Assembly: GCA_000999025.1 (NCBI GenBank)
Contig: LCFM01000003.1
Span: 12,253 to 76,252, forward strand
Direction: 5' to 3'
From: Parcubacteria group bacterium GW2011_GWA2_43_13
GTDB lineage: Bacteria; Patescibacteriota; Patescibacteriia; UBA9629; GWA2-43-13
Length of the DNA stretch: 64,000 nt
Shown here: piece after piece, positions 2 to 56,536 of the stretch
Position numbering within the stretch: position 1 is the stretch's first letter
Layout: every line of letters starts with the position of its first letter
Position numbers and translations under genes: made by a program
Notes under the pieces: generated by a model
Told to the model about the DNA's origin: nothing
Databases searched by the model: none
What the model saw: the letters and a program-made list of their open reading frames with translations, nothing else

Positions 2-355
2 AAAGAGCCCATCATGACTGATGAAAAATGCGAAAAATGCGGCAAACCAATGGTGAAAAAAGACGGGCGGTTCGGCCCATTTCTGGCGTGCTCTGATTAT
101 CCAACCTGCAAAAGCACAAAAAATATCGAACAATCAACCGGTATTACCTGCCCGGCATGCAAAAAAGGCGAGATTATTGCAAAACGCTCACGCAGAGGCA
201 AACCGTTTTGGGCATGCAACCAATACCCTGACTGCGAAAACGCGTACTGGGGAAAACCAACTGGCGAAACCTGCCCTGTGTGCACATCACTGATCGTTCA
301 ATCAACAAAAGACACGACTGCGTGTAGTGACAAAAAATGCAGTTATAAAACGTAG
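2..355 (+). CDS. topA: DNA topoisomerase I, C-terminal zinc-ribbon region (3' partial)
   Basis: The reading frame is open from the window edge. It contains repeated CxxC...CxxC zinc-ribbon modules (CEKCGKPM, CPACKKG, CPVCTS) typical of the Topo I C-terminal domain. The stop TAG lies inside the family A hairpin. Confidence 0.5.
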   Translation, partial: KEPIMTDEKCEKCGKPMVKKDGRFGPFLACSDYPTCKSTKNIEQSTGITCPACKKGEIIAKRSRRGKPFWACNQYPDCENAYWGKPTGETCPVCTSLIVQSTKDTTACSDKKCSYKT

Positions 356-423
356 AGACGCCCCGCTGGGGCGTCTCAAAACGATATGTACTGAATCGAG
401 ACGTGCCAGCGGCGCGTCTCTAC
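352..423. repeat. Family A composite palindromic element (unit X GAGACGCCCCGCTGGGGCGTCTC plus unit Y GAGACGTGCCAGCGGCGCGTCTC inside outer GTAGAGACG/CGTCTCTAC)
   Basis: Read directly: GTAGAGACGCCCCGCTGGGGCGTCTC ... GAGACGTGCCAGCGGCGCGTCTCTAC. The same modules recur at 5406, 12691 and 39574. Confidence 0.8.
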
Positions 424-2617: not shown

Positions 2618-3034
2618 ATGAAACAATTTTTACAATACGTTATTACATTTGGAGTGCCTGTTTTAGTGCTTGCGTTGATGCTTGCACCTTTTTTTATTTT
2701 TAGAAAAGCGCGCGGTTGGCTGGGCTCTTGGCCCGGCGCGATTTTGCGGTGGGGAGTGGGGGTTGGGATTTGGTATTTAACAACAGATGTTTTTTTTAAT
2801 AAATTTTATTACTCTACATTACCTGGAATAGACAGTGCGAATATCGTCCTTATTTTAGGGTTATTTATATTTTTCCTTCTTTGGCCGTTCTTTGGATTTA
2901 ATCTTGCGCAAGGTAATAAACTAACCAAATCTATTATTTTTCAACTGATAGTAGGTCTGATAAATGTAGCAGTTGGTATTTTTATATTGATTATGGCTAT
3001 TCCATGGGGATTGGCCGGATTGGGAGGACTGTAA
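2618..3034 (+). CDS. hypothetical integral membrane protein
   Basis: 138 aa with several hydrophobic segments. No recognisable family. Confidence 0.45.
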   Translation: MKQFLQYVITFGVPVLVLALMLAPFFIFRKARGWLGSWPGAILRWGVGVGIWYLTTDVFFNKFYYSTLPGIDSANIVLILGLFIFFLLWPFFGFNLAQGNKLTKSIIFQLIVGLINVAVGIFILIMAIPWGLAGLGGL

Positions 3035-3082
3035 CCTCACCCCTACCCTCTCCTTATTAAGGAGAGGGAGACGACGGCACTC
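3035..3082 (+). repeat. Family B palindromic element (CCTCACCCCTACCCTCTCCTT-ATTA-AGGAGAGGGAGACGACGG)
   Basis: Perfect 10-bp stem CCCTCTCCTT/AAGGAGAGGG in the intergenic gap between 2618..3034 and 3089..5395. The right arm is a Shine-Dalgarno-like AAGGAGAGGG. Confidence 0.8.
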
Positions 3083-3088
3083 GTAATT

Positions 3089-5395
3089 ATGCGCAAAAAA
3101 ATTATTATCATCAACGTTATTTTATTATTAGGAGGAGGCATCTTGCTTCCGTTCCATTTTTTATCAGCCATAGATCAGCTGACTCCCATTATTATTGTAC
3201 CTGGTGTCGGCGCTTCGCTTAACTGGCAAACATTCACTGACCATGGGAATAATAGTTGGGATTTTGCACCAAGTGTAAATGACTATAAAACATTAATTCA
3301 AACACTTGAAGCACGTGGATATGTTTTAAACCAAAACCTCTTTATTGCGCATTATGATTGGCGGCAAAGTAATCTTTTATCAGCAACACAATATCTTAAA
3401 CCAGTGATTGATAAAGCAATACTAATCAATCGTACGAATGATGTCTATGTTATTGCTCACAGTATGGGCGGATTAGTAACACGATCATATGTGGAATATA
3501 ATAATGATACAAGAATTGCAAGCTTTATTATGCTTGGAACACCGAATTATGGATCCGGAGATACGTATACACTATGGGAAAATGGAACATTACCAGTAGG
3601 ATATACTGGAAAACGCGCATATGCCATCTTATTTTATCTCTGGTATCTTACAGCTTCTCAAAAATTATTTGGCGATAACTTTACTGCCGTACAACAAAAT
3701 GTCCAATCCGCAAAAGAGTTACTGCCGACATACGATTATCTCAAAAACGCAGAAACAGATGAAATAATTCCTTATGCAACGCATAAACGCAAAGCAAACA
3801 CCTTAAGCCGCAATTCGTTTTTAGAAAGTCTCAATGATCCATGGAGCATGCAAAAAATGATTGATCGTATTTTTAACACACACATTATCGCAGGCACTGG
3901 CGAGCAAACGCTAAAGTATATCCCTGTCGCGCCGGATAATGATACTAACAATGCGCAATGGACTGACGGTGTGCCATTACCTAATCCGCCACTAAAGGAT
4001 ACAGATGAGGGCGACGGGACAGTATTACTCGAAAGCGCGTTGATTAAAAATTTGGATATTCATAAACGGATTGTTTTGGTGCAGTCGTGGTGGAGGAAAG
4101 CGTTATCTTTATTCATACCTCACCCCTCCCTCTCCTTCTTAAGGAGAGGGAACGACGACGCCTCCGGACATCACCCCAACCCTCTTCCCAATCCGCCAGC
4201 TGGCGGATTGGGACAAGCTCTTGTAAAGGAGAGAGGGATTGACGTTGCCTACGCGCAAGAAGATGATGAAGGATATACGCATGAAGAATACATCCAAAAT
4301 TGCATTAATCGCGGAAAAACGCGGGAAGAATGCGAGCAACAACTTGAAAACTATTTTTTATCCAGCAGTTATCCAATTAAACTGCACACCATTGCCTCAA
4401 CCCATGGCGATTTGCCAACAACCGCGATCCCTAAAATCTTTGAAATACTTGGACTTGGCGCAGTGCCTGAAATACCGGCCCAACCATCCCCTATCCAACG
4501 ACTGCTCCAAGTATGGATTGGATCTCCTGTTGCAGTAGACATCACAGCCCCTGATGGAACCCCAATGAATGAAATAGAAAATATCGAAATCGCGACATCA
4601 GGTGGGGATGATCCGATTCAAATCATTTCCATCCCAGAACCGGAACAAGGGGAATATACTGTCACGCTTACTGGCACCGGAACAGGAGAATACCATCTTG
4701 CCGCCTCACTCATAAGCGATACTGAACAAACATTAACAACAAAAAATGGCACGACTGCGCCATCATTGCAAACAACATATACAGTAACAATCCCTGAACA
4801 ACCAGCAGAACCCACACAAAATCAAAACCTCTTTGAGCAAGAACCAACCACGGACTACACCCTTTCACTCTCGCAAGGATGGAATCTTATTTCTATCCCC
4901 TCTTTTATTTCCGACTCGTCTCCGGAATCATTCTTTGAAGAGAATATACAATCCATTGATTCTATTTGGTCGTATGACGCTTTGCAAGAAAATCCATGGC
5001 ACACATATTATCCGAACCGGCCGGAGCTCAACTCACTTACAACTCTCTCCCCCGGGTACGGCTATTGGATCAAATGGACATTGCAAGAGCCACTTACACT
5101 CACAAAACAAATAGCTCCGCTTGAGCAAGGGCCAATGACTCCGCCTTCACGCACACTCACAAATGGATGGAATTTAATCGGGCCATATCATCTCTTTAAT
5201 ACGCGATCAGGTGCTTTTGAAACAGCGTTTCAAACACTCACGCTGAATAATACCCCTTTATGGAAGTCCATACTTGGATATAATAATGACAGAAAAATAT
5301 TTCAACGATTTTCGGATGATGATTTTGACGATGCAGGCAATGGCTACTGGCTGTTTGTGCAAAATAAAAAAGGATCCTCTGTGTTTGCTCCGTAA
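3089..5395 (+). CDS. secreted alpha/beta-hydrolase (lipase/esterase, PGAP1/LCAT-like) with a large C-terminal domain
   Basis: N-terminal signal peptide and a nucleophile elbow GxSxG (VIAHSMGGLV). Residues encoded by about 4118-4212 come from family B and E repeat sequences in frame. Confidence 0.55.
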   Translation: MRKKIIIINVILLLGGGILLPFHFLSAIDQLTPIIIVPGVGASLNWQTFTDHGNNSWDFAPSVNDYKTLIQTLEARGYVLNQNLFIAHYDWRQSNLLSATQYLKPVIDKAILINRTNDVYVIAHSMGGLVTRSYVEYNNDTRIASFIMLGTPNYGSGDTYTLWENGTLPVGYTGKRAYAILFYLWYLTASQKLFGDNFTAVQQNVQSAKELLPTYDYLKNAETDEIIPYATHKRKANTLSRNSFLESLNDPWSMQKMIDRIFNTHIIAGTGEQTLKYIPVAPDNDTNNAQWTDGVPLPNPPLKDTDEGDGTVLLESALIKNLDIHKRIVLVQSWWRKALSLFIPHPSLSFLRRGNDDASGHHPNPLPNPPAGGLGQALVKERGIDVAYAQEDDEGYTHEEYIQNCINRGKTREECEQQLENYFLSSSYPIKLHTIASTHGDLPTTAIPKIFEILGLGAVPEIPAQPSPIQRLLQVWIGSPVAVDITAPDGTPMNEIENIEIATSGGDDPIQIISIPEPEQGEYTVTLTGTGTGEYHLAASLISDTEQTLTTKNGTTAPSLQTTYTVTIPEQPAEPTQNQNLFEQEPTTDYTLSLSQGWNLISIPSFISDSSPESFFEENIQSIDSIWSYDALQENPWHTYYPNRPELNSLTTLSPGYGYWIKWTLQEPLTLTKQIAPLEQGPMTPPSRTLTNGWNLIGPYHLFNTRSGAFETAFQTLTLNNTPLWKSILGYNNDRKIFQRFSDDDFDDAGNGYWLFVQNKKGSSVFAP
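4118..4212 (+). repeat. Family B element plus 26-bp perfect palindrome CCCAATCCGCCAGCTGGCGGATTGGG, inserted in frame within the hydrolase gene
   Basis: CCTCACCCCTCCCTCTCCTTCTTAAGGAGAGGGAACGACGACGCCTCC is nearly identical to the copy at 3035. It is translated as LSLFIPHPSLSFLRRGNDDASGHHPNPLPNPPAGGLGQ. Confidence 0.75.
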
Positions 5396-5405
5396 TGAGG
5401 GAGAT

Positions 5406-5469
5406 GTAGAGACGGGGTTAACCCCGTCTCTACGATTATTAAAAAGACACCCCGCTGGGGCGTCTCTAC
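5406..5469. repeat. Family A composite element (GTAGAGACGGGGTTAACCCCGTCTCTAC plus AGACACCCCGCTGGGGCGTCTCTAC)
   Basis: Lies between the convergent hydrolase gene and parB. Probably acts as a bidirectional terminator. Confidence 0.8.
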
Positions 5470-5499: not shown

Positions 5500-6399
5500 T
5501 TATTTTCCTACCAATTTCGCGACAATCGCCCCTAAATCCTCCTCACTATAAAACTCAATATCCACAGAGCCGCGCTCACCGCGCTTATGAATATGCACGC
5601 GCGTGCCAAGCGCTTCTTCAAGAGCGCTCTCCTGCGCGACGGTATCCGAACTTTTCCGCAAGGACCTATCATGAGTGCGTACTTTTATTTTTTGCACTTC
5701 CGCAAGCGCACGCGTGCCGGTCATCTCTCCTTTTTTCATCTTTTCCCATAATGCATTTCTCTCCTCGTCTGTTTTTAAACTCAACAAATTCCGCGCCTGA
5801 TACTCATTGATTTCACCGACTGCGAGCGAATGCTGAATAGCATCAGGCAGTGTTAATAACCTCAGCGTGTTTGCAATAACCGGACGACTTTTGCCCATTC
5901 GTTTTGCTATTTCTTCTTGCGTCAATCCAAACTCATCAGACAATCGGGCGTATGCTTCTGCAAGTTCAATAAAATTCAAATCAGCACGTTGAATATTTTC
6001 AATCATCGCAAGTTCGAGTTTTTCCATTTCATCGGTTTCCCGAATCACCGCGGGAATTGTTTTCAATCCGATTCGTTTTGCGGCCTGCAAACGCCTCTGT
6101 CCGGCAACCAAAATATATCCGCCAACAGGATCAATGCTTACAACCAAGGGCTGTAAAATACCATGCTGTTTAATTGATTCAGCAAGATCATTCAGCGCCA
6201 CGGAATTCATATCTTTGCGCGGCTGATATGGATTTTCTTTAATATCGCCAACGTCAATATGTAAAATCCTGTCTGATCGCACGTCATCATCGCTCTGACG
6301 TGGAGAAATATCATCGGTATCCCCTCTGTGATGCGCAGAAGATTGCGCCATTGGAATCAACGACGACAATCCTCGGCCTAATATTTGTTTTTTTGACAT
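5500..6399 (-). CDS. parB: chromosome partitioning protein ParB/Spo0J
   Basis: ParB N-terminal nuclease-like box (ILQPLVV ... GQRRLQAAKRIGL) followed by an HTH. Adjacent to parA. Confidence 0.85.
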   Translation of the reverse strand: MSKKQILGRGLSSLIPMAQSSAHHRGDTDDISPRQSDDDVRSDRILHIDVGDIKENPYQPRKDMNSVALNDLAESIKQHGILQPLVVSIDPVGGYILVAGQRRLQAAKRIGLKTIPAVIRETDEMEKLELAMIENIQRADLNFIELAEAYARLSDEFGLTQEEIAKRMGKSRPVIANTLRLLTLPDAIQHSLAVGEINEYQARNLLSLKTDEERNALWEKMKKGEMTGTRALAEVQKIKVRTHDRSLRKSSDTVAQESALEEALGTRVHIHKRGERGSVDIEFYSEEDLGAIVAKLVGK

Positions 6400-6489
6400 A
6401 CTGTTAAAAAATTCGAGCCCACCAGCTGGCGGAAAAATTCGAAACTATTTTTAATGTTATATTTTGAATGTCCTACTTTGTGCTTTTTC

Positions 6490-7272
6490 CTATGCCCTCA
6501 AGGTATCTAAAATCTCGCGCGTTAATTTTTCATACGCTTTAGCTCCTCGTGATTTGTCGTCATAATTGATAATCGGCAATCCATGAGAAGGCGCTTCAGC
6601 AAGACGGACATTGCGAGGGATAACGGACCGAAAAATCTTTTTAGGAAAATACTGATACAATTCTTTTAACACTGCCTCGGAGAGCCCGACTCTCTTGTCA
6701 TACATTGTAATCACCGCACCTAAAATATTCAACTCCGCGTGTAAATTTTGTTGCACAAGATTGATCGTATTTAATAACTGCCCCAATCCTTCAAGCGCAT
6801 AATATTCCGCCTGAACAGGAATCAACACATGCGTCGCTCCAACCAAACCATTGATGGTCAAAAGCCCTAAACTCGGCGGGCAATCTATCACAATAAAATC
6901 GTAATCATGAGAAAAGGATTTCAGCGCGTCGTGCAAACGATATTCACGACGCGGAAGATTAACAAGTTCCACTGTTGCACCGGCTAATTGAATCGTTGCC
7001 GGAGCCATATGCAGTCGCTCATCTGCTTTGCCTAAAATAACATGAGGAAACGGATGTACCCCGACCATTGCCTCATACACGCCCTTATCAAGCTCGCTAT
7101 GCCGAATCCCCATGCCACTGGTTGCGTTTGCCTGGGGATCAAGGTCAACCAAAAGAACTTTTTTTCCAAAGTATGCTAAAAACGTCGCAACATTGACCGC
7201 AGTCGTTGTTTTGCCAACACCTCCTTTTTGATTTACAACAGCAATACTATGAGCCATATTTACCTGTATCAT
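6490..7272 (-). CDS. parA: chromosome partitioning ATPase ParA/Soj
   Basis: Deviant Walker A (KGGVGKTTTAVN). The start was chosen at MIQVN; the ORF continues to 7302. Confidence 0.85.
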   Translation of the reverse strand: MIQVNMAHSIAVVNQKGGVGKTTTAVNVATFLAYFGKKVLLVDLDPQANATSGMGIRHSELDKGVYEAMVGVHPFPHVILGKADERLHMAPATIQLAGATVELVNLPRREYRLHDALKSFSHDYDFIVIDCPPSLGLLTINGLVGATHVLIPVQAEYYALEGLGQLLNTINLVQQNLHAELNILGAVITMYDKRVGLSEAVLKELYQYFPKKIFRSVIPRNVRLAEAPSHGLPIINYDDKSRGAKAYEKLTREILDTLRA

Positions 7273-7531
7273 ATCATACGGTTTCTCTTTAGGAAATGGC
7301 AATCAGTAGACAATCTGCAAAAATTCTATTAAAGTATGGATGGTAAGTATAGGCATCACTCTCCAGAATTGAACTTAGAACGCAGGGGAAATTGTGTCTG
7401 GCGTAGTTTTGGAACGAGGGGGATTTGAGCCGTATCCAATGATACGGCGAAAATTTCCTGACGTGAAAAACAAGCCAGGCGCAATCTTAACAAGTTATGG
7501 AGTGCTATTTTGGGGAGTGATGCCTATGTAT

Positions 7532-7615
7532 GCCGCCGTGGTGGAATTGGTAGACACGCAGGTCTCAAAAACCTGTGAGGGCAACTTCATGTCGGTTCGA
7601 CTCCGACCGGCGGCA
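7532..7615 (+). tRNA. tRNA-Leu (anticodon CAA), long variable arm
   Basis: Folded by hand. Acceptor GCCGCCG/CGGCGGC, D-arm with GGTAGAC, anticodon stem CAGGT/ACCTG with loop CTCAAAA, and T-arm GTCGG-TTCGACT-CCGAC. Confidence 0.8.
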
Positions 7616-7623
7616 ATTTTTCT

Positions 7624-7697
7624 ACCAGGGTAGCTCAGTTGGTTAGAGCGAGGGAATCATAACCCCTAGGTCGTGAGTTCGATCCTCACCCCTGGTA
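7624..7697 (+). tRNA. elongator tRNA with anticodon CAT (Met, or Ile2 if lysidinylated)
   Basis: Acceptor ACCAGGG/CCCTGGT, D-loop AGTTGGTTA, anticodon loop ATCATAA, and T-arm GTGAG-TTCGATC-CTCAC. There is an A31-C39 mismatch in the anticodon stem. Confidence 0.7.
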
Positions 7698-7867
7698 CTC
7701 ATTACACACTATGGTTGCTTGCATTAAAATATCATGAATGATATAGTCCCGTACAAAGTATTCGCCATAAAATGCTTTAGTATTTTATGGCGAGAGGAGG
7801 GGCAAGCGTAGGCTGAAGTGTGGCACTTTAGTGACACACGTAAGCCAAAGCTTTGACCCGACGACGA

Positions 7868-12614: not shown

Positions 12615-12690
12615 AGTACTTTATTTTAATACGGGCTAAAAACATCTGCTATCATAACGAAAAAATCCCTTTATTGCAAGGGGGGTCGGT

Positions 12691-12754
12691 GTAGAGACGC
12701 GGCGGTGCCACGTCTTATAGATACAAGAGACGCCCCAACGGGGCGCGTCTCTAC
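12691..12754. repeat. Family A composite element (unit Y-like GTAGAGACGCGGCGGTGCCACGTCTTATAG plus unit X GAGACGCCCCAACGGGGCGCGTCTCTAC)
   Basis: Read directly. Sits in the intergenic gap between two minus-strand genes. Confidence 0.8.
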
Positions 12755-13592: not shown

Positions 13593-13982
13593 TCACATTA
13601 TTACACCACGACTCAACGCTTCTCTTAAAGCGTCACGAACCAAAAGTGCACACTTGAGGCGCACTGGGGTAAGGGAAATGCCTAATAAATCTGTTACTGT
13701 TTCCGACGTCATTTGCTCTACTTCTTGGATTTCCTTCTCTTTTGCCCATTCAGTCAATAGAGAAGCGCTGGCAATGCATATCGCGCATCCATGGCCATCA
13801 AACCCAATAGCGACAATATTTGACAATTGACAATTGACAATTGACATTTGGACCCACACTTCAACCTCATCCCCACACAACGGATTAGAAACCTTACCAG
13901 AATAATGCGTAAAATCATCCAACCTCCCTCGGTTTCGCGGGTTTTTGTAATGATCTAAAATCTGCTCACGGTACATTGACAT
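13593..13982 (-). CDS. sufU: Fe-S cluster scaffold SufU/IscU-like, carrying an in-frame repeat insertion
   Basis: HYKNPRNRG ... CGDEV ... GCAICIASAS conserved scaffold motifs. The loop between them is expanded by MSIVNCQLSNIV, which is encoded by the family C repeat. Confidence 0.75.
   Translation of the reverse strand: MSMYREQILDHYKNPRNRGRLDDFTHYSGKVSNPLCGDEVEVWVQMSIVNCQLSNIVAIGFDGHGCAICIASASLLTEWAKEKEIQEVEQMTSETVTDLLGISLTPVRLKCALLVRDALREALSRGVIM
13816..13852. repeat. Family C tandem repeat (TTGACAA x4) inside sufU
   Basis: atatttgacaattgacaattgacaattgacatttgga, in frame. Confidence 0.8.
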
Positions 13983-14034: not shown

Positions 14035-14442
14035 ATGTTGTCACGAAAGATCCGGCGCACGCCTCATAGCCCAGTGCCACAAATAACAGTGAGTTACAAT
14101 ATAGTACCACAGGCGAACCTCCGCTCTGCGGACCTCCGCGAGGCGGACCTCCGCTCTGCGAACCTCCGCGAGGCGGACCTCCGCTCTGCGAACCTCAGCT
14201 GGGCGTTCCTCAACTGGGCGGACCTCCGCTCTGCGGACCTCCGCAAGGCGAACCTCCGCTCTGCGGACCTCCGCGAGGCGGACCTCCGCAAGGCGAACCT
14301 CCGCGGGGCGTTCCTCAACTGGGCGGACCTCCGCTCTGCGGACCTCCGCGAGGCGTTCCTCAGCGGAGCGAAATACAATGCACAAACCATGTTCCCCGAA
14401 GGATTTGATCCGAAAACCGCAGGAATGATCAAACAGGAATGA
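14035..14442 (+). CDS. pentapeptide-repeat protein
   Basis: ANLRSADLREADLRSANL repeats (A[DN]LxxA[DN]L). The underlying DNA is a 30-nt-period tandem repeat, so the antisense frames are also open. Confidence 0.55.
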   Translation: MLSRKIRRTPHSPVPQITVSYNIVPQANLRSADLREADLRSANLREADLRSANLSWAFLNWADLRSADLRKANLRSADLREADLRKANLRGAFLNWADLRSADLREAFLSGAKYNAQTMFPEGFDPKTAGMIKQE

Positions 14443-14508: not shown

Positions 14509-15780
14509 TTACAACCGCTTCTGTACACTTTTTATACCAACCACCAACCTCTCAACATCCTCTTCGGTATTATATACCCATACGCTTGCCCGACACGATG
14601 CGACAAGTCCTAAGTATTCATGCAAAGGCATAGCGCAGTGATGACCAGCGCGGATGGCAATATTTTGTTCATCCAATAATTGGGCTACATCATGAGCGTG
14701 GATGTTAGGGAAGTTAAACGAAATCAAACCAGAGCGTTTTTCAATCTCGCGAGGACCAAGAATCCAGTTTTCAGTTTTCATCTGCCAGCTGGCGGATCGG
14801 TTTTCAAATTTGACATTTGATAACTGACAACTGATATTTGAAAGTATTGCCTCCTCGTGCTTCCGTATATCATTCCAGCCCAAACTCTTTAACCAATTCA
14901 CTGCCGCGGCAAGCCCAATCGCGCCTGCGATATGTGGAGTGCCTGCTTCAAATTTATGCGGAACATCATTCCAAACCGAATAATCGCGATGCACTTCGCG
15001 GATCATATCCCCACCAGTTATAAACGGCTCCATCTCTTGCAGGCGTGATGACTTTGCGTATAACACGCCAATGCCGGTTGGGCCACCTAATTTATGCCCG
15101 GAAAACACCAGAAAATCACAATCTAAATCTCCCACATCCACTTTCATGTGAGGAACTGATTGCGAAGCATCAATCAATACTGGCACATGATGTTCATGCG
15201 CTTGTTTGATGATTTCTTTTATTGGATTGACCGTGCCAAGCACATTGGAGACATGGGTAAGCGCGAGGAAATTGATTGACTCAAAATAATGGTCAGGAAT
15301 AATCAATTCTCCATTTGCATCAACTTCCAAGTACCGTAACGTACTACCTTTGACATTTGACAACTGACATTTGACAACCGACTGCCACGGCACAATATTG
15401 CTGTGATGCTCGGCAATGGATAACCCAATAACCGCACCGTCACCCCCTCCTTTTAAAGGAAAGGGGAGGGGGTGGTTTCGCAACCACGCGTACGCGACTA
15501 AATTGATCGCCTCGGTCGCGTTGCGCGTAAAAATAATCTCGGAAGGATGCGCGCCAATAAAGCTGGCAACATCCTCCCGCGCCTGCTCATACGCCGCGGT
15601 GGCGCGATTAGAAAGCGCATAAATCCCCCTATGAACATTCGCGCTGTATTCGGTGTAATACTTGTTCATCGCGTCAATCACGCACTGCGGTTTTAGTGCT
15701 GTCGCCGCGCTATCTAAATACACCAAATCTGGATGATGGTTAAATATCGGAAATTCTTTTTTAATACTTTGATCAAACAT
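14509..15780 (-). CDS. sufS: cysteine desulfurase SufS (PLP-dependent), with three in-frame repeat insertions
   Basis: RAGHHCA active-site motif and the PLP lysine region (SGHKLGGPTG). The start was set at MFDQSIK to avoid overlap with the upstream gene. Confidence 0.85.
   Translation of the reverse strand: MFDQSIKKEFPIFNHHPDLVYLDSAATALKPQCVIDAMNKYYTEYSANVHRGIYALSNRATAAYEQAREDVASFIGAHPSEIIFTRNATEAINLVAYAWLRNHPLPFPLKGGGDGAVIGLSIAEHHSNIVPWQSVVKCQLSNVKGSTLRYLEVDANGELIIPDHYFESINFLALTHVSNVLGTVNPIKEIIKQAHEHHVPVLIDASQSVPHMKVDVGDLDCDFLVFSGHKLGGPTGIGVLYAKSSRLQEMEPFITGGDMIREVHRDYSVWNDVPHKFEAGTPHIAGAIGLAAAVNWLKSLGWNDIRKHEEAILSNISCQLSNVKFENRSASWQMKTENWILGPREIEKRSGLISFNFPNIHAHDVAQLLDEQNIAIRAGHHCAMPLHEYLGLVASCRASVWVYNTEEDVERLVVGIKSVQKRL
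14771..14844. repeat. Family C/E repeat in sufS (GCCAGCTGGCGGAT plus TTGACA-type heptamers)
   Basis: ctgccagctggcggatcggttttcaaatttgacatttgataactgacaactgatatttg is translated as NISCQLSNVKFENRSASWQMKTENW. Confidence 0.75.
15348..15384. repeat. Family C tandem repeat in sufS
   Basis: ctttgacatttgacaactgacatttgacaaccgactg is translated as KCQLSNVKGST. Confidence 0.8.
15441..15474. repeat. Family B-like palindrome in sufS (CACCCCCTCCTTTTAAAGGAAAGGGGAGGGGGTG)
   Basis: Imperfect hairpin translated as PLPFPLKGGGDG. Confidence 0.65.
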
Positions 15781-15802
15781 AAAATTGTCATGACACTTTA
15801 TT

Positions 15803-16192
15803 TTAATGACCATTCTTGCCACATCCGCACTGCCCCCCGCAACAACCATCCTGTGCCCCACTACCTCCGCAACACTCGTCATCCTCAATCATCACCACAA
15901 CCTCATCTCCCTCCACCAAAACCTTATACGTTTTCAATGGATGCGTCGCAGGCAATGCAAGCACTTTGCCGGTTTTGATATCAAACCGCGCGCCATGGCG
16001 AGGGCACTCAATAATATGATCGTCAATAATCACGCCCTGCACCAAAGACGCTCCTTTATGCGTGCACTCATCATCAAGGGCAAACCACCCATCTTGAAGA
16101 TGATACACAGTAATCTTTTTTCCACTAATCTCAAACCTCTTTTTTTTACCAATAGAAATATCACCTATTGGAATATTTAACTGTTTTGACAT
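15803..16192 (-). CDS. Rieske [2Fe-2S] domain protein with a cysteine-rich C-terminal tail
   Basis: CTHKGASL and CPRHGARF Rieske boxes. The tail is ECCGGSGAQDGCCGGQCGCGKNGH. Confidence 0.75.
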   Translation of the reverse strand: MSKQLNIPIGDISIGKKKRFEISGKKITVYHLQDGWFALDDECTHKGASLVQGVIIDDHIIECPRHGARFDIKTGKVLALPATHPLKTYKVLVEGDEVVVMIEDDECCGGSGAQDGCCGGQCGCGKNGH

Positions 16193-16197
16193 AGATA

Positions 16198-16845
16198 CTA
16201 TGATTGAGGTATTAATTTCATCACTTCGAATAAAAATCCTTTGATGATCATTTCTTGCGCTAATGCCTTTTCTATACCACGACTTTGGAGATAAAACAAC
16301 TGCCTATCATCAATCCTACCAGTCGTTGCGGCATGGCTTGCTTTGACATCATTGGCTTCTATTTCCAACTCCGGCTTGCTTTCTGATTTTGCATGTTTTG
16401 ATAGCAACAACACCCGATTTTCTAAAAACGCGTTTGATTGCTGGGCTGGTTTATCAATTTTGATCATGCCGTTGAACACTTGTTTACTCGCATCTTTCCC
16501 CACGCCTTTGAATAATGTTTTTGATTGCGAGCGCGGACCAAGATGATGAACAGTAAGATTGAATTGATAATGACTATCGTGTTCAGCAAGAACTGCGCCA
16601 CAGATTTCTGCCCGTGCGTCTGCGTGGAGTTCAACGCGCAGAGTACGGCGCGTCATCGTACCCTCTCCTAATGTAGGAGAGGGTACGATGACACTCGTCG
16701 GTACAAAAAAATACCGCACAACTCCAAACGGCTCTACCGTAATCACCGCCTCTCCCGAAACTCCCCCATCATCAACCACCACCAACTCATCGTTGGGATT
16801 AACACAAATATTATTCATCATATCAGACCAATGCAATAACTTCAT
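16198..16845 (-). CDS. sufD: SufD-like Fe-S assembly protein (short)
   Basis: C-terminal SufB/D core ([27 protein letters not shown]). The ORF contains family B element 16651-16692, which also offers an internal SD+ATG (start MTRRTLRVEL at 16656). Confidence 0.65.
   Translation of the reverse strand: MKLLHWSDMMNNICVNPNDELVVVDDGGVSGEAVITVEPFGVVRYFFVPTSVIVPSPTLGEGTMTRRTLRVELHADARAEICGAVLAEHDSHYQFNLTVHHLGPRSQSKTLFKGVGKDASKQVFNGMIKIDKPAQQSNAFLENRVLLLSKHAKSESKPELEIEANDVKASHAATTGRIDDRQLFYLQSRGIEKALAQEMIIKGFLFEVMKLIPQS
16651..16692. repeat. Family B element (CGTCATCGTACCCTCTCCTA-ATG-TAGGAGAGGGTACGATGAC)
   Basis: 19-bp near-perfect inverted repeat. Both orientations read AGGAGAGGG-N4-ATG. Confidence 0.8.
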
Positions 16846-18290: not shown

Positions 18291-18343
18291 ATCAATTTTC
18301 AAATGTCAAATTTGAAAACTGAAAACTGAAATTTGACATTTGG
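18291..18343. repeat. Family C tandem repeat (CTGAAAA/TTGACA heptamers), intergenic between sufC and sufB
   Basis: atcaattttcaaatgtcaaatttgaaaactgaaaactgaaatttgacatttgg. Confidence 0.8.
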
Positions 18344-19075
18344 TTACTGACTTTCTCTATACCCCATTGCTTCAACTTGTTCTGCCAACTCCTTTCCTCC
18401 ACTCTCCATAATCCTCCCCTGTTTCATAATATGCACATGCGTTGGAGTAAGATATTTCAAGATACGATTATAATGAGTAATAATCAACACGGACTTTTCA
18501 GGCGACATCCACTCATTGATGGATTGCGCAACCGCTTGCAGTGCATCAATATCCAAACCGGAATCAATCTCATCTATCACCGCAAACTTAGGATCAAGCA
18601 TTTTTAATTGCAAAATCTCTGCTTTCTTTTTTTCACCGCCTGAAAATCCTTCATTCACATTTCGATCGCTAAACTCTTCGGCAATCCCTAACGGTTGCAT
18701 CGCAGATGTAATCTCTTTTTGAAATTCAGCAACCGAACCGACTTCGGCGTGCGTGCGCTGATACGCAGTGCGCAAAAAACTGGAAAGCGATACCCCCGGA
18801 ATCTCGACAGGATACTGAAAAGCTAAAAAGACGCCCTTGCGAGCTCGCTCTTCTGGTGAAAAAGTCACAATACTTTTGCCTTCAAAAAGAATCTCCCCAT
18901 GAGTAACCTCAAACCCGGGGTTACCTGCAATCACCTGCGCAAGCGTTGATTTTCCGCTCCCATTCGGCCCCATAATCGCATGAATCTCGCCTGCGCGTAT
19001 CTCCAAAGATAGATTATGAATAATCACTTTTTGTTCCACACAAACATCCAAACCACGAACAAATACCATTGACAT
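18344..19075 (-). CDS. sufC: Fe-S cluster assembly ATPase SufC
   Basis: Walker A GPNGSGKST, ABC signature LSGGEKK, Walker B ILDEIDSGLD. Confidence 0.9.
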   Translation of the reverse strand: MSMVFVRGLDVCVEQKVIIHNLSLEIRAGEIHAIMGPNGSGKSTLAQVIAGNPGFEVTHGEILFEGKSIVTFSPEERARKGVFLAFQYPVEIPGVSLSSFLRTAYQRTHAEVGSVAEFQKEITSAMQPLGIAEEFSDRNVNEGFSGGEKKKAEILQLKMLDPKFAVIDEIDSGLDIDALQAVAQSINEWMSPEKSVLIITHYNRILKYLTPTHVHIMKQGRIMESGGKELAEQVEAMGYRESQ

Positions 19076-30735: not shown

Positions 30736-30778
30736 AGGGTGAATAGTAATGTGATATCTGATAACTGACATTTAGAAT

Positions 30779-34200: not shown

Positions 34201-34267
34201 AATATCAAATGTCAGTTATCAGTTTTCAAATTTGACAACTGAAAATTGACAACTGAAAACTGCCAGT
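34201..34267. repeat. Family C tandem repeat between the hydrogenase subunit genes
   Basis: aatatcaaatgtcagttatcagttttcaaatttgacaactgaaaattgacaactgaaaactgccag. Confidence 0.8.
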
Positions 34268-35599
34268 ATGCACTTAATAGACCTCGACCTCACCATTGAC
34301 GAAATGACCAAAGTAGAAGGCGCGGCATCTGTTGATGTCAAAATTCGCAGTGGCGTGGTTGAATCAGTCAAGTTCGGCATCACAGAATACAAACGATTTT
34401 ATACCCAAGCCATGCGCGGAAAATCCATCACTGCCCTGCCCCAACTATTAGCCCGAATTTGTGGCACCTGCAGTAACGCGCATTTACTGTGCAGTATTGA
34501 AGCATGCGAACACGCGCTTGGCATCACCCCATCCCCTCAAACCCAAATTCTAAAACGACTTACCATGTATGGATTAAACATCCGAGATCACGCATTACAT
34601 TTGTATCTTTTTGTTGCTCCTGACTTGCGTAATAAAGACAATTTTTTAAGTTTTGACGAGCATGATCCTATAGAACACGATATGCTCCACGATGCATTTG
34701 CCATCAAAGCCGCTGGCAATCATCTCGCCCAAATCGTCGCAGGCAGAAGCGTGCATGGCATGTATCCTGCTATTGGAGGATTTACCAAAACCCCTACGCA
34801 ACAAGAAACGCAGTCAATTATTAAGCAACTTCAAGAGGTACGGCCACGCGTATTGCGACTCATTAAAACATTTGAACAATGCGATTGGAAATTTGATCGC
34901 ACAACCAAGTATATGGGTATGTCGGCTGATCATTATTCTTTTTTAGAAGGAGTTATCATCAGCGATACTGGCCAACGGATAGAAGAACAGGACTACCACA
35001 ATCATTTGGAACATGTCGTCATCCCCTATTCTCAAGCATCTGGATACAAACACGATAATGAATGTTATATGGTTGGTGCTCTCGCGCGTGTTAATTTATC
35101 AAAGGAAAAACTGCATCCGAATACAAAAAAAGACGCAAATTCTGCTATTGCGCTCTTTCCATCAACCAATATCTATCACAATAATCTTGCACAGGCGATT
35201 GAAATTTTGCATTGCATTGATGACGCGATTGACCTGCTTAATAATACCCAATTTAAACAAGAACCCCTCCCAAAACCGGTGTTTCGCGAAGCAATGGGCA
35301 TTGGAGTTGTAGAAGCGCCGCGCGGGATGCTGTATCATCGCGTGCATATTGATGATAACGGCATTGTGATGGAAGGCGATATTGTGGTACCGACCGGACA
35401 AAATCAAATCAATATTGAACAAGATTTAAAAACCCTTATTCAGCGATTGATTGATAATGATGTTGAAAATAAACATGAAATCCAGCACGAGATGGAAAAA
35501 CTCATCCGCGCCTACGACCCCTGCATGTCCTGCGCCAGTCATTTTTTAAAAATCAATTGGATAGAAAAAAATAACATCCTTACATTCTCAAGTTTATAA
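34268..35599 (+). CDS. [NiFe]-hydrogenase large subunit (group 3-like)
   Basis: N-terminal TKVEGAAS (RIEGH-like) and RICGTCSNAH (L1), with C-terminal DPCMSCASHF (L2, DPCxxCxxH). Confidence 0.8.
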   Translation: MHLIDLDLTIDEMTKVEGAASVDVKIRSGVVESVKFGITEYKRFYTQAMRGKSITALPQLLARICGTCSNAHLLCSIEACEHALGITPSPQTQILKRLTMYGLNIRDHALHLYLFVAPDLRNKDNFLSFDEHDPIEHDMLHDAFAIKAAGNHLAQIVAGRSVHGMYPAIGGFTKTPTQQETQSIIKQLQEVRPRVLRLIKTFEQCDWKFDRTTKYMGMSADHYSFLEGVIISDTGQRIEEQDYHNHLEHVVIPYSQASGYKHDNECYMVGALARVNLSKEKLHPNTKKDANSAIALFPSTNIYHNNLAQAIEILHCIDDAIDLLNNTQFKQEPLPKPVFREAMGIGVVEAPRGMLYHRVHIDDNGIVMEGDIVVPTGQNQINIEQDLKTLIQRLIDNDVENKHEIQHEMEKLIRAYDPCMSCASHFLKINWIEKNNILTFSSL

Positions 35600-38353: not shown

Positions 38354-39577
38354 ATGCAAAACTACGATTACATCATTATCGGTGGTGGAGTGGCAGGTAC
38401 GGTTGCCGCAGAAACCATTCGGCAGAATGATACAAACGGGACAATCGCCATTATCTCGGATGAACCATACCCGTTTTACTCCCGCATCATGCTATCAAAG
38501 CCAAACTTTTTTTTAGGCAAAATGTCGTTTGAGTCAATTTTCCGGCATGATAAGCAATGGTATATTCAAAACAATATAGATTTAAAAAATAGTATCAGGG
38601 CAACTACTCTCAATACTGATACAAAAAAGGTTACACTCAATACTAACGAATCCCTTACATACAACAAACTCCTCCTTGCCCTTGGCGTCTGCGCCCGAAC
38701 ATTAGGACTCCCAAACGAAACGATAAGCGGTGTCTATTGCGTTCGCACGCTTGATGATGCAAAAGGCATCATGAAAACCATAAAAACGGCAAAAAAAGCC
38801 GTTGTTGTTGGCGCTGGATTTATTGGGTTTGAAATGTGCGATATTCTCAAACTCGCTGGCCTTGATGTTACCCTCATTATCCGCGAGCCATTCTTTTGGG
38901 GACACCTCTTACATAACAAGGCCGGAAGTATTATAGAAAAAGCAATAACTGAAAAAGGAGTAACTATCATAAAAGAAGATGAAGTCGCAACTATTGAAGG
39001 CGCGGAAATAGTAACTGGTATCACAACAAAAAAGCAGGTCCATCTTAATGCAGATCTCCTTGCGATTGGTGTTGGATCCGTATGTCCTAAAGATATCCTT
39101 TTACAAAAAACAATGGAAACAAGAAATGGCATTATTGTGAACGAATATCTTGAAACCAATATGCCTGATATATGGGCCGCTGGTGATTGCGCTGAATATT
39201 TTGATACTATTTTGGATGAATATATCCAAATGGGAAACTGGGCAAATGCGCAATTGCAAGGAAAAATTGCCGGCCTCAATATGACTGGCACAAAAACTGC
39301 TTTTAGCGCCGTAACTAATTATACGTGTAGCGGATTTGGGCTTTCAATCGCTTTTGTAGGAGATGTAAAAAGCGGAGAAGGTAAAGAGTTAATAGAACGT
39401 ATGCCAGACGACACACATTCGTATGGCCACTTTATTCTTAAAGATAACCGCATTATTGGCGCGGCGCTCATTAACAGAACATCAGAACTGAATACCATTA
39501 CTACATTGATACAAAACAAAATTGATATTTCAAATAAAAAAGAACTCCTTGTATCAGGAGATATTGCAATATCGTAG
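38354..39577 (+). CDS. FAD-dependent pyridine nucleotide-disulfide oxidoreductase (NADH oxidase / rubredoxin reductase-like)
   Basis: Two Rossmann motifs (IIGGGVAGTVAAE and VVVGAGFIGFEM). The stop TAG is part of the family A hairpin. Confidence 0.75.
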   Translation: MQNYDYIIIGGGVAGTVAAETIRQNDTNGTIAIISDEPYPFYSRIMLSKPNFFLGKMSFESIFRHDKQWYIQNNIDLKNSIRATTLNTDTKKVTLNTNESLTYNKLLLALGVCARTLGLPNETISGVYCVRTLDDAKGIMKTIKTAKKAVVVGAGFIGFEMCDILKLAGLDVTLIIREPFFWGHLLHNKAGSIIEKAITEKGVTIIKEDEVATIEGAEIVTGITTKKQVHLNADLLAIGVGSVCPKDILLQKTMETRNGIIVNEYLETNMPDIWAAGDCAEYFDTILDEYIQMGNWANAQLQGKIAGLNMTGTKTAFSAVTNYTCSGFGLSIAFVGDVKSGEGKELIERMPDDTHSYGHFILKDNRIIGAALINRTSELNTITTLIQNKIDISNKKELLVSGDIAIS

Positions 39578-39656
39578 AGACGCCCCACTGGGGCGTCTTC
39601 AGGAAAATGCGACAATAGTGCATCTCTCATAAAGACGTGCCATCGGCACGTCTCTA
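39574..39656. repeat. Family A composite element (unit X GTAGAGACGCCCCACTGGGGCGTCTTC plus unit Y AAAGACGTGCCATCGGCACGTCTCTAC)
   Basis: Same architecture as 352-423. Lies between convergent genes. Confidence 0.8.
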
Positions 39657-44389: not shown

Positions 44390-44416
44390 AGAATATCATG
44401 TATCAACAAAACCAAT

Positions 44417-44444
44417 GTAGAGACGGGGTGAACCCCGTCTCTAC
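44417..44444. repeat. Family A single hairpin (GTAGAGACGGGGTGAACCCCGTCTCTAC)
   Basis: Read directly. Confidence 0.8.
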
Positions 44445-44455
44445 ACAGTATACCT

Positions 44456-52769: not shown

Positions 52770-52779
52770 AGAAGCGTAT

Positions 52780-52807
52780 GTAGAGACCGGGTGAACCCCA
52801 TCTCTAC
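52780..52807. repeat. Family A-like single hairpin (GTAGAGACCGGGTGAACCCCATCTCTAC, degenerate)
   Basis: Two mismatches relative to the 44417 copy. Confidence 0.7.
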
Positions 52808-52828
52808 AGATTATATCAAAAACAAACA

Positions 52829-53607: not shown

Positions 53608-53646
53608 AGATTCTTTCTGTATTGTAACAGAAATCTCCCACCAGTT

Positions 53647-53675
53647 GTAGAGACACCCCCCTGAGGCGTCTCTAT
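53647..53675. repeat. Family A-like single hairpin (GTAGAGACACCCCCCTGAGGCGTCTCTA)
   Basis: Read directly. Confidence 0.7.
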
Positions 53676-56448: not shown

Positions 56449-56499
56449 AATATCAGATTTCGATTCTCACATATCAAATTCTCTACGATTAACGCGGTC

Positions 56500-56536
56500 G
56501 TCATTTGAAAACTGACATCTGACATTTGATAATTGG
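56500..56536. repeat. Family C tandem repeat
   Basis: gtcatttgaaaactgacatctgacatttgataattgg. Confidence 0.75.

What the first reader, a model, noticed from the sequence alone, without database searches (positions are those of the whole stretch)
4118..4212. Hydrolase gene carries a family B element plus a perfect 26-bp palindrome; GCCAGCTGGCGGA motif recurs
Inside the 768-aa alpha/beta-hydrolase gene, a family B copy at 4118-4165 is followed by the perfect palindrome CCCAATCCGCCAGCTGGCGGATTGGG at 4187-4212. Both are translated. The core GCCAGCTGGCGGA(T) recurs between parB and parA (6418-6432, flanked by direct AAAAATTCGA repeats) and inside the sufS insertion (14782-14800). This looks like a fourth small repeat family (E). 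The copy between parA and parB could be a protein-binding site.
Basis: seen in the sequence. Interest (0 to 1): 0.5.

Follow-up and report, generated by a model that had tools for sequence, protein, structure and literature searches.

The report
Small palindrome nested inside hairpin repeats
A 16-28 base GC-rich palindrome has recently been copied into three places in this candidate-phyla-radiation genome, two of them inside working genes and one in the middle of another hairpin repeat, and the identical 18-base core turns up in many unrelated low-GC bacteria, so it looks like a tiny selfish DNA insert whose means of spreading is unknown.

Summary
The window comes from a Candidatus Jacksonbacteria genome.

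The lipase-like hydrolase gene carries about 41 extra codons between its catalytic Asp and His, and distant orthologues lack them. The extra codons are two tandem family B hairpin repeats, which carry a CGTC tag like REP elements. The second copy is interrupted by a perfect palindrome that is 28 nt long, not 26.

The nearest relative has both B copies intact and no palindrome, a difference of 33 nt. The sufS copy is also absent from that relative, a difference of 12 nt. The relative instead carries the core in the loop of a B element in sufD, where the window's B is intact. All these differences keep the reading frame.

The 18-mer ATCCGCCAGCTGGCGGAT occurs in at least 105 loci of Patescibacteria, Bacteroidota and Cloacimonadota; fewer than 2 are expected by chance.
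- About a fifth of copies sit at the centre of longer hairpins.
- In genes it is usually read as PPAGG.
- It has no constant target duplication and no conserved flank.
- No transposase is linked to it.

Best reading: a selfish nested palindrome copied by template switching or short-patch conversion. The parS/protein-binding idea has no support.

The parts
3089..5395 (+). Host gene: secreted LCAT/PGAP1-like alpha/beta hydrolase, 768 aa. Catalytic Ser125 (AHSMGG), Asp309 (GDGTV) and His439 (STHGD).
   Evidence: Pfam LCAT 5.5e-18. S125, D309 and H439 are invariant in 9 orthologues. 100% identical to a Candidatus Jacksonbacteria protein.
4118..4160 (-). Family B copy 1: hairpin CCCTCTCCTT-CTT-AAGGAGAGGG. 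Its CGTC tag (CGTCGTCGTT) and GGGGTGAGG tail read on the minus strand. Translated as PHPSLSFLRRGNDD.
   Evidence: DNA hairpin -11.1 kcal/mol, z -3.2. Present in P0002, absent from P0003 and from all more distant orthologues.
4170..4244 (-). Family B copy 2, in tandem with copy 1, split by the E insert. Left part 4170-4185 (ATCACCCCAACCCTCT); right part about 4221-4244 (TTGTAAAGGAGAGAGGGATTGACG).
   Evidence: Relative L001 has the intact form CACCCCAACCCTCTCCTTGTAAAGGAGAGGGGGATTGAC. In the RNA fold the B2 stem encloses the E hairpin.
4186..4213 (.). E copy 1: 28-nt perfect palindrome TCCCAATCCGCCAGCTGGCGGATTGGGA. The whole extra segment relative to L001 is about 4186-4220 (35 nt replacing 2, net +33 nt, 11 aa, read as PNPPAGGLGQA).
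   Evidence: DNA hairpin -14.2 kcal/mol, z -5.9.
6417..6432 (.). E copy 2, degenerate (GCCCACCAGCTGGCGG), in the 90-nt parA-parB spacer.
   Evidence: Folds no better than shuffles. Not terminator-like. Not present in the relative's spacer.
6407..6442 (.). Direct repeats AAAAATTCGA (6407-6416 and 6433-6442) flanking E copy 2. They look like a 10-bp target duplication or a slippage product.
   Evidence: Flanking direct repeats are not a general feature of the family.
14780..14797 (.). E copy 3 (ATCTGCCAGCTGGCGGAT) inside sufS, at the edge of a heptamer-repeat insert. Read on the minus strand as SASWQM.
   Evidence: Relative L125 has GAAAACCGA-AAAC-TGAAAAC where the window (minus strand) has GAAAACCGA-TCCGCCAGCTGGCAGA-TGAAAAC, net +12 nt.
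14509..15888 (-). Host gene sufS (cysteine desulfurase). It carries three separate small repeat-derived inserts.
   Evidence: Pfam Aminotran_5 3.5e-127. Alignment to solved SufS structures. Orthologue alignment.
16653..16690 (-). Intact B element inside sufD (ORF 16198-16845). This is the 'empty' counterpart of the relative's B-plus-E composite.
   Evidence: Window has CCCTCTCC-TACATTA-GGAGAGGG. L125 has CCCTCC-TCCGCCAGCTGGCGGA-TAGGGGAGGG at the orthologous site, net +9 nt.
5500..7302 (-). parB (5500-6399) and parA (6490-7302), the genes flanking E copy 2.
   Evidence: Pfam ParB_N/HTH_ParB and AAA_31/CbiA.

Best explanation
Family E is a very small selfish DNA insert. Its core is the GC-rich palindrome TCCGCCAGCTGGCGGA (16 nt), which often extends to 18, 24 or 28 nt and folds into a tight hairpin.

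Shown:
- New copies have arisen recently and independently in this Jacksonbacteria lineage and in its sister lineage.
- They land preferentially in DNA that is itself hairpin-forming or slippage-prone. Such targets are the loops or inner stems of other REP-type repeats (family B here) and AT-rich heptamer arrays.
- Each insert replaces a few bases rather than duplicating a fixed target.
- In every filled/empty comparison inside a gene the net length change is a multiple of three.

Inferred:
- Copies are made by a templated DNA process, either copy-choice (template switching) during replication of hairpin DNA or short-patch gene conversion between hairpins. This process would use 2-3 nt microhomologies such as TCC/GGA or GA(T)/T. 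It would not be cut-and-paste transposition.
- Because the core has no stop codon in any of the six frames, copies that fall in tolerant surface loops of proteins and keep the frame survive selection and are translated, mostly as the flexible peptide PPAGG.

The hydrolase segment is the result: two B repeats, with an E palindrome nested in the second, in a variable loop between the catalytic Asp and His.
For: In the window:
- There are three copies against 0.1 expected.
- All filled/empty comparisons favour insertion: hydrolase +33 nt against L001, sufS +12 nt against L125 with outgroup L128 also empty, and the reciprocal case in sufD, where the relative carries E in the B loop and the window's B is intact, +9 nt.
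- Where orthology can be judged, no E site is shared between the two lineages.

Nesting in other hairpins:
- B loops twice.
- A different REP type in L001.
- GTAG-type and GCAATGAC-type hairpins in other genomes.
- The hairpin tip of two pseudo-5S fragments.
- Flanks of 93 low-GC copies are more complementary than permuted flanks: 29% against 12% at or below -12 kcal/mol, p = 6e-4.
- Twenty-one copies have arms of 12 nt or more, against about 2 expected.
- The 24-mer occurs in 14 metagenome contigs, with site-specific arms extending perfect palindromes to 34-44 nt.

Against fixed-end transposition:
- The copied length varies (16, 18, 24, 28 nt).
- Direct repeats of 6 nt or more flank only 5% of copies.
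- No base is conserved beyond the 18-mer.
- No protein family recurs near the copies; the best is 5 of about 120 loci.
- No transposase, RAYT or reverse transcriptase is in the window.

The identity is set at the DNA level:
- Perfect 18-mer in about 105 loci against about 15 for the one-mismatch variant, and fewer than 2 expected by composition in low-GC genomes.
- LeuRS of two CPR genomes share 18 of 18 bases, while flanking third codon positions are 36% identical. None of 119 other LeuRS sequences has the insert.

Selection filter in genes:
- Only the gene's frame is open.
- In low-GC genomes the reading is PPAGG 18 times, against 7 for the other two frames.
Against: - No step of the copying mechanism was observed. 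The microhomologies are only 2-3 nt, and the hydrolase junction cannot be resolved cleanly.
- Template switching does not by itself explain why the same 16-18 nt are identical across phyla. That pattern would be easier to explain by a conserved protein that recognises the hairpin.
- About 60-80% of copies elsewhere have neither complementary nor repeated flanks, so the hairpin-loop preference is a tendency, not a rule.
The fold enrichment therefore rests on a composition model and on the one-mismatch internal control.
- Translation of the inserts is inferred only. The structure model is poor (mean pLDDT 56).
Confidence: 0.45

Rival explanations
1. E is a non-autonomous element moved in trans by a dedicated enzyme encoded elsewhere in the genome. 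One candidate is a single-strand-specific HUH/Y1 transposase of the IS200/IS605-RAYT kind. The enzyme would recognise the hairpin and insert it into single-stranded DNA, such as hairpin loops, without target duplication.
For: - The exact 16-18 nt core is identical across Patescibacteria, Bacteroidota and Cloacimonadota, which suggests recognition by a conserved protein.
- There is no constant target duplication, and IS200/IS605-type transposition makes none (established knowledge; PMC3333891).
- Copies prefer DNA that can become single-stranded.
- GTAG- and CGTC-tagged REPs coexist in the same window.
Against: - There is no conserved unpaired tag or target tetranucleotide next to the hairpin.
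- The element ends vary: 16, 18, 24 or 28 nt.
- A few host bases are replaced at each junction.
- No Y1 transposase or other candidate is in the window or recurs near 120 loci. A single-copy gene acting in trans would not be expected nearby, however.
Confidence: 0.25
2. E is a functional cis-element kept by selection. It would be either a binding site for a conserved DNA- or RNA-binding protein or a stabilising or terminating RNA hairpin.
For: - The 18-mer is conserved at the DNA level in two diverged LeuRS genes.
- Some Bacteroidota copies form the tip of hairpins followed by T-runs, like intrinsic terminators.
- The hairpin is very stable.
Against: - Positions are unrelated to one another: inside sufS, sufD, a hydrolase, LeuRS, Pth, AsnB, REP loops and pseudo-5S fragments.
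- Presence or absence differs between close relatives at every site that could be compared.
- The parA-parB copy is the most degenerate, does not fold, is not parS-like and is not conserved.
- Rfam has nothing at these sites.
Confidence: 0.1
3. E accumulates like a DNA uptake sequence: biased uptake of DNA carrying the motif, followed by recombination, spreads it through genomes that rely on natural transformation.
For: - Uptake sequences are conserved at the DNA level, occur inside genes in preferred reading frames, and often form inverted pairs (established knowledge for Neisseria and Pasteurellaceae).
- The PPAGG frame bias fits that pattern.
Against: - The half-site CTGGCGGAT is not enriched outside the palindromes: 18 against 11.4 with one mismatch, and all exact copies lie within E.
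- Density is about one copy per 15-20 kb, far below known uptake sequences.
- The same sequence occurs in unrelated phyla.
Confidence: 0.05
4. Chance recurrence, or an assembly or adapter artefact.
For: - The sequence is short and has sharp boundaries.
- It is identical in data sets from many laboratories.
Against: - 0 of 100 shuffles reach the observed number in the window.
- Copies are internal to contigs, with continuing and often in-frame sequence on both sides.
- They occur in cultured isolates and in long-read assemblies.
- Degenerate copies and tandem derivatives exist.
- Hits in high-GC genomes are ordinary IRQLAD coding and account for only about 15 loci.
Confidence: 0.03

Closest known systems
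Intragenic REPs, including Rickettsia RPE-4/RPE-6 (GTAG- and CGTC-tagged REP superfamilies; Di Nocera et al. 2013, PMC3733652)
   Same: - Short hairpin repeats found singly, as dimers or in groups inside genes, read through in frame and adding 20-80 amino acids.
- Family B here carries a CGTC tag, a stem, a short loop and a tail.
- In the hydrolase B forms a head-to-tail dimer.
   Different: - E has no GTAG or CGTC tag.
- It is a loop-less perfect palindrome of 16-28 nt.
- It is nested inside other REPs.
- Its core is identical across phyla, whereas REP families are mostly specific to a species or genus.
- The host is a CPR bacterium, and the paper search found no report of REPs in CPR.
Rickettsia palindromic elements (RPE-1 type)
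   Same: Palindromic repeats inserted in frame into housekeeping protein genes, on tolerant surface segments.
   Different: - RPE-1 is 100-150 bp and confined to Rickettsia.
- E is 16-28 nt and spans several phyla.
- No sequence relationship was looked for or seen.
Mobile GC clusters of yeast mitochondrial DNA and repetitive hairpin elements of sponge and fungal mitochondria (PMC4478555, PMC2800124)
   Same: - Tiny GC-rich palindromes scattered in AT-rich DNA.
- Polymorphic between close relatives.
- Occasionally found inside genes and rRNA.
- No transposase of their own, and the mechanism is unresolved.
   Different: - These are organellar, not bacterial.
- They are 30-60 bp and are often associated with short AT-rich target duplications.
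- The sequences are unrelated.
MITEs
   Same: Non-autonomous, inverted-repeat structure, dispersed copies.
   Different: - MITEs are 50-500 bp, with terminal inverted repeats matching a parent insertion sequence and target duplications of fixed length.
- E has none of these.
parS centromere sites
   Same: A palindromic 16-mer next to parAB.
   Different: - The sequence is unrelated to TGTTNCACGTGAAACA.
- This copy is degenerate.
- It is absent from the relative's parA-parB spacer.

Membership tests
REP elements (GTAG/CGTC-tagged, RAYT-associated) | Palindrome of 20-40 bp able to form a stem-loop | tested here: met
   E copy 1 is a 28-nt perfect palindrome, -14.2 kcal/mol, z -5.9. B copy 1 is -11.1 kcal/mol.
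REP elements (GTAG/CGTC-tagged, RAYT-associated) | Unpaired GTAG or CGTC tag at one end | tested here: not met
   E: no base is conserved outside the 18-mer in 188 half-flanks. B, by contrast, meets this feature: CGTC(GTC)-T-CCCTCTCC in most of about 11 copies.
REP elements (GTAG/CGTC-tagged, RAYT-associated) | Cognate Y1 transposase (RAYT) in the genome | not testable with these tools
   None is in the 64-kb window and none recurs near 120 loci. The rest of the genome was not available.
REP elements (GTAG/CGTC-tagged, RAYT-associated) | High copy number, mainly extragenic, downstream of genes | tested here: not met
   E has three copies in 64 kb, two of them intragenic. In other low-GC genomes roughly a quarter to a third of copies lie in long ORFs.
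MITE | Terminal inverted repeats plus a target-site duplication of fixed length | tested here: not met
   Flanking direct repeats of 6 nt or more occur in 5% of 93 copies. The sufS, sufD and hydrolase junctions show replacement of 2-7 nt and no duplication. Only the parA-parB copy has a 10-bp direct repeat.
Rickettsia palindromic elements | In-frame insertion into protein-coding genes that stay intact | tested here: met
   Net +33, +12 and +9 nt. Catalytic residues are invariant and only the gene's frame is open.
Rickettsia palindromic elements | Element length of about 100-150 bp with the RPE consensus | tested here: not met
   E is 16-28 nt.
parS / ParB-binding site | Match to the TGTTNCACGTGAAACA consensus | tested here: not met
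   No match within 3 mismatches near parAB. The single weak hit in the window is at 28933.
parS / ParB-binding site | Conserved in relatives at the par locus | tested here: not met
   The parA-parB spacer of L125 is 290 nt, cannot be aligned and has no E.
Intrinsic terminator | GC-rich hairpin directly followed by a T-run | tested here: not met
   No terminator-like site is called at any window copy. A few Bacteroidota copies elsewhere do have this form.
DNA uptake sequence | Non-palindromic 9-12-mer strongly over-represented genome-wide | tested here: not met
   Half-site: 18 against 11.4 expected with one mismatch. Exact copies occur only inside E.
Known RNA families (Rfam 15) | Match at the gathering score | tested here: not met
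   Only three tRNAs are found in the window.

The most novel reading that the evidence does not exclude
The 16-18-nt palindrome TCCGCCAGCTGGCGGA is a cross-phylum 'infectious hairpin'. On this reading it is the smallest known self-propagating DNA element. It would spread within and between genomes of Patescibacteria, Bacteroidota and Cloacimonadota by invading the tips of other hairpins and tolerant protein loops. The means would be either a transposase-independent templated process or a still unknown conserved hairpin-specific enzyme. It would also be a general source of lineage-specific PPAGG-type insertions in housekeeping proteins.
Probability: 0.3. Interest if true: 0.8.

Novelty: new variant of a known kind. 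Interest (0 to 1): 0.6.

Why it matters
- It shows, with filled and empty sites side by side, how lineage-specific insertions in CPR housekeeping proteins can arise from selfish hairpin DNA rather than from adaptive protein evolution.
- It documents repeats nesting inside repeats.
- It points to one exact 18-mer shared by distant low-GC phyla. That calls for either a common mobilising activity or a sequence-intrinsic copying advantage, and both can be tested in cultured Bacteroidota that carry the element.
- In practical terms, such inserts create spurious 'conserved motifs' (PPAGG, SASWRI, IRQLAD), disturb alignments and phylogenies, and could serve as strain markers.

Tried and rejected
- **parS or protein-binding site for the parA-parB copy.** Rejected.
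- **Known RNA family.** Nothing in Rfam.
- **Literature.** No paper in the library contains the sequence CCGCCAGCTGGCGG, and none reports REPs in Patescibacteria. Searches for PPAGG and for loop-insertion wording gave nothing relevant.
- **Linked mobilising gene.** All-against-all comparison of 1,403 ORFs within 3 kb of the copies found no family in more than 5 loci. Pfam annotation of nearly all window ORFs found no transposase.
- **Control counts in viral contigs.** Only one hit, in high-GC coding sequence, so this collection could not calibrate the enrichment.
- **E as a genuine 5S rRNA feature.** The true 5S gene in L066 has a normal tip. The two E-bearing copies are downstream 5S fragments.
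- **Uptake-sequence idea.** The half-site is not enriched.
- **Structure model of the hydrolase.** Too poor to place the insert; it shows only that the insert is predicted as low-confidence coil.
- **LeuRS homologue search.** It returned mostly fragments. It did show that none of 119 sequences has the insert, but it found no further carriers.
- **Constant target duplication.** Not present.
Full report
**Source and setting.** The window has about 43% G+C and a uniform negative GC skew. Its 768-aa hydrolase is 100% identical to a protein of Candidatus Jacksonbacteria bacterium RIFCSPLOWO2_02_FULL, so this is a candidate-phyla-radiation (Patescibacteria) genome. The genes around the finding are relA/spoT, a small ORF, the hydrolase, parB, parA, a tRNA cluster, and then the suf operon with sufS and sufD. 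The window is rich in small hairpin repeats of several kinds.

**The observation.**
- The palindrome is one pair longer than stated: 28 nt, at 4186-4213.
- The 13-mer GCCAGCTGGCGGA with at most 1 mismatch marks three sites (4192-4207, 6421-6433, 14781-14796). Only 0.10 matches are expected, and none of 100 shuffles reaches the observed number.
- CAGCTG on its own is at background.
- No further convincing copy lies in the remaining 49 kb.

**What the hydrolase segment is.** The gene encodes an LCAT/PGAP1-type alpha/beta hydrolase. Ser125, Asp309 and His439 are invariant in nine orthologues. The repeats lie between the Asp and the His.
- Orthologues at 46-49% identity have nothing there: 'L-G-I/F..AHAQ' in place of about 41 residues.
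- P0003 (73% identity) lacks the first B copy, has the second, and has a different extra element.
- P0002 (74% identity) has both B copies and no palindrome.

At the DNA level the relative reads CACCCCAACCCTCT-CC-TTGTAAAGGAGAGGGGG. The window reads CACCCCAACCCTCT-TCCCAATCCGCCAGCTGGCGGATTGGGACAAGCTC-TTGTAAAGGAGAGAGGG.

Family B has the consensus CGTCGTC-T-CCCTCTCC-loop-GGAGAGGG-TAGGGGTGAGG and about eleven copies in the window. That gives it the architecture of the CGTC-tagged REP superfamily described by Di Nocera et al. (PMC3733652). Those authors also documented intragenic REP dimers and groups.

As RNA or DNA, the 139-nt region folds into the B1 hairpin plus a B2 stem that encloses the E hairpin (-60 kcal/mol, z -5.4). 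Of the three plus-strand frames, only the hydrolase frame stays open through the region. The structure model is poor overall (mean pLDDT 56). It predicts the insert as low-confidence coil, which fits a surface loop but is weak evidence.

**The other two window copies.**
- *sufS.* Alignment to solved SufS structures shows a roughly 15-residue insert made of heptamer repeats plus E. The closest relative, L125 (77-82% identity, syntenic), has the heptamers but reads GA-AAAC-T where the window has GA-TCCGCCAGCTGGCAGA-T, a net gain of 12 nt. The outgroup L128 also lacks E.
- *parA-parB spacer.* This copy is degenerate and flanked by a 10-bp direct repeat. It folds no better than shuffled sequence and is not terminator-like. 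It is unrelated to parS, and the window has no parS-like sequence near parAB.

**Reciprocal evidence for mobility.** The sister lineage has E at other places.
- In sufD it reads CGTCGTT-CCCTCC-TCCGCCAGCTGGCGGA-TAGGGGAGGG, that is, E in the loop of a B element. The window's orthologous B (16653-16690) is intact, with the loop TACATTA, a difference of 9 nt. The outgroup has heptamer repeats at that same spot.
- Another E 16-mer sits in the centre of a different hairpin repeat in L001.

At every site where orthology can be judged, E is present in one lineage only. All three differences inside genes are multiples of three. This implies recent activity in both lineages and purifying selection on the host genes.

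- About 105 loci carry the perfect palindrome and about 15 the one-mismatch variant. The variant has twice the sequence space, so this serves as an internal control for palindrome-specific excess.
- About 15 hits lie in high-GC genomes and are ordinary coding for IRQLAD.
- The other roughly 90 lie in genomes of 24-50% G+C, where composition predicts fewer than two in the whole collection (my calculation). They comprise 33 loci of Patescibacteria, about 45 of Bacteroidota (cultured Niastella, Pedobacter, Sphingobacterium, Olivibacter and Aquiflexum among them), 6 of Cloacimonadota, and some low-GC bins labelled Gammaproteobacteria.
- Flanks differ from locus to locus, and no base is conserved beyond the 18-mer.
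- The 24-mer version seen in the hydrolase occurs in 14 metagenome contigs at about ten distinct loci. There the site-specific flanks usually extend the perfect palindrome to 34-44 nt.

**Where copies sit.**
- Flanks of 93 low-GC copies are more complementary to each other than permuted flanks: 29% against 12% at or below -12 kcal/mol, p = 6e-4.
- Twenty-one copies have perfect arms of 12 nt or more, against about 2 expected.
- Recognisable hosts are GTAG-type REPs, GCAATGAC-type hairpins and terminator-like stems.
- In one Chitinophagales bin, the hairpin tip of two 5S rRNA fragments downstream of a normal 5S gene is replaced by E.
- A second common context is AT-rich short-period repeat arrays, as in sufS.
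- Target-duplication-like direct repeats are rare (5% at 6 nt or more) and mostly reflect tandem-repeat contexts.

**In genes.**
- The 18-mer has no stop codon in any frame.
- In low-GC genomes it is read as PPAGG in 18 cases, against 7 for the other two frames.
- Two CPR LeuRS genes carry it between the cysteines of the CxxC zinc knuckle (C-DPPAGG-C). None of 119 other LeuRS sequences does.
- In those two genes the flanks are 60% identical and third codon positions 36% identical, yet all 18 bases of E are identical. From that third-position rate, six identical third positions have a probability of about 0.002 under protein-level constraint alone.
- Two peptidyl-tRNA hydrolase genes also carry it in the same loop.
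- The sequence is therefore set or maintained at the DNA level.

**Mechanism.** Several points argue against classical cut-and-paste transposition with fixed ends:
- No transposase, RAYT or reverse transcriptase is in the window.
- No protein family recurs near the copies.
- The copied length varies (16, 18, 24, 28 nt).
- A few host bases are replaced at each junction.
- E's outer TCC/GGA overlaps the inner stem of B in sufD.
- Conservation falls off in steps from the centre outward.

These points fit copy-choice or short-patch conversion between hairpins. Growth of the palindrome outward by the known quasipalindrome template-switch process would be a plausible sequel.

The chief weakness is that such a process does not explain identity across phyla. 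A trans-acting hairpin-specific enzyme of the IS200/IS605-RAYT type, which also leaves no target duplication, remains a serious rival. A selected cis-function, an uptake-sequence-like drive (the half-site is not enriched), chance and artefact are all less likely.

**Comparison with what is known.** Intragenic REPs and RPEs are established (PMC3733652), so the B part of the finding is a new instance of a known phenomenon in a new phylum. E resembles these, and it also resembles mitochondrial GC clusters and hairpin elements (PMC4478555, PMC2800124). It differs from all of them in several ways:
- Its size.
- The lack of a tag.
- Nesting in other repeats.
- Its cross-phylum identity.

I found no paper containing the sequence and none on REPs in Patescibacteria. 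I therefore classify it as a new variant of a known kind.

**Limits.**
- The genome scan was truncated.
- No equal-composition control palindrome could be scanned.
- Only 64 kb of the source genome and about 75 kb of its relatives were available.
- Translation of the inserts is inferred.

Noticed in passing
window 14509-15888 (sufS), especially 15335-15381 and 15438-15472: Besides the E-plus-heptamer insert, sufS carries two more small repeat-derived inserts relative to solved SufS structures. One is a B-like hairpin read as PLPFPLKGGGD. The other is a TTGACA-type heptamer block read as CQLSNVKG, and the same peptide appears twice in the protein.
   Followed up: partly
window 13806-13857, 14796-14847, 15335-15381, 18291-18352, 30748-30770, 34218-34269, 56484-56535: A family of AT-rich 7-nt-period repeats (TTTGACA / TTGACAA / CTGACAA). 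Copies are partly inverted relative to one another, and several lie inside genes. Similar short-period arrays flank the E core in many other CPR genomes.
   Followed up: partly
window 351-376, 399-424, 5404-5441, 5440-5469, 12690-12748, 39573-39599, 44415-44452, 52778-52815, 53646-53671: GTAG-tagged REP-like palindromes (GTAGAGACG...CGTCTCTAC) of at least two subtypes, mostly just downstream of genes. In another genome (L015) the E core forms the tip of this type of hairpin.
   Followed up: no
window 16560-16800 compared with L125:8920-9140 and L128:330-560: The same spot in the N-terminal part of sufD holds three different inserts in three lineages: an intact B element, B with E in its loop, and GGTTTCA-type heptamers. 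This is an insertion hot spot, like the Asp-His loop of the hydrolase, where P0003 has yet another element.
   Followed up: partly
L064:3696-3790: A tandem array of four 22-nt units (GTCCGCCGACTGGCGGATTGGC) derived from the E core, in a Patescibacteria contig that also holds an exact E copy at 5336.
   Followed up: no
L062:2189-2322; L057:4716-4810 and 7561-7760: In one Patescibacteria genome, two E cores bracket a roughly 100-nt unit. That unit is itself made of small hairpins (GTCATCCTGAC-GAAA-GTCAGGAT and ATTCTGAA-TCAA-GTTCAGAAT). The composite is repeated at several loci and is flanked by AT-rich heptamers.
   Followed up: no
L066:5250-5460: Two tandem 3' fragments of 5S rRNA lie downstream of the real 5S gene. 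Each has its helix tip replaced by the E 18-mer and is followed by a terminator-like hairpin.
   Followed up: partly
L019:143, L105:2425, L111:5894, L040:4655, L104 near 4200: A second GC-rich palindrome, (A)CCTGCCTGCCGGCAGGCAGG(T), recurs in unrelated CPR and other low-GC contigs. In L104 it lies directly beside E. E may be one of several cross-genome palindrome 'words'.
   Followed up: no
window 2618-5395 compared with L125:19250-21362: In the syntenic relative, parB is followed directly by relA/spoT. In the window, the hydrolase and a 138-aa ORF with no Pfam match lie between them. In the relative this gene pair sits elsewhere, next to an RHS/toxin-immunity cluster (L001).
   Followed up: no
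window 14035-14442 (+): A pentapeptide-repeat protein gene lies between nifU and sufS (Pfam Pentapeptide, 9.7e-31). It accounts for the 15-nt tandem periodicity at 14082-14396.
   Followed up: yes
window 46937-52453 (-) and 55138-56448 (-): An 1838-aa ORF with no Pfam match, and an OLD-family AAA/TOPRIM nuclease gene. These are the only defence-like or unusual genes in an otherwise housekeeping window.
   Followed up: no
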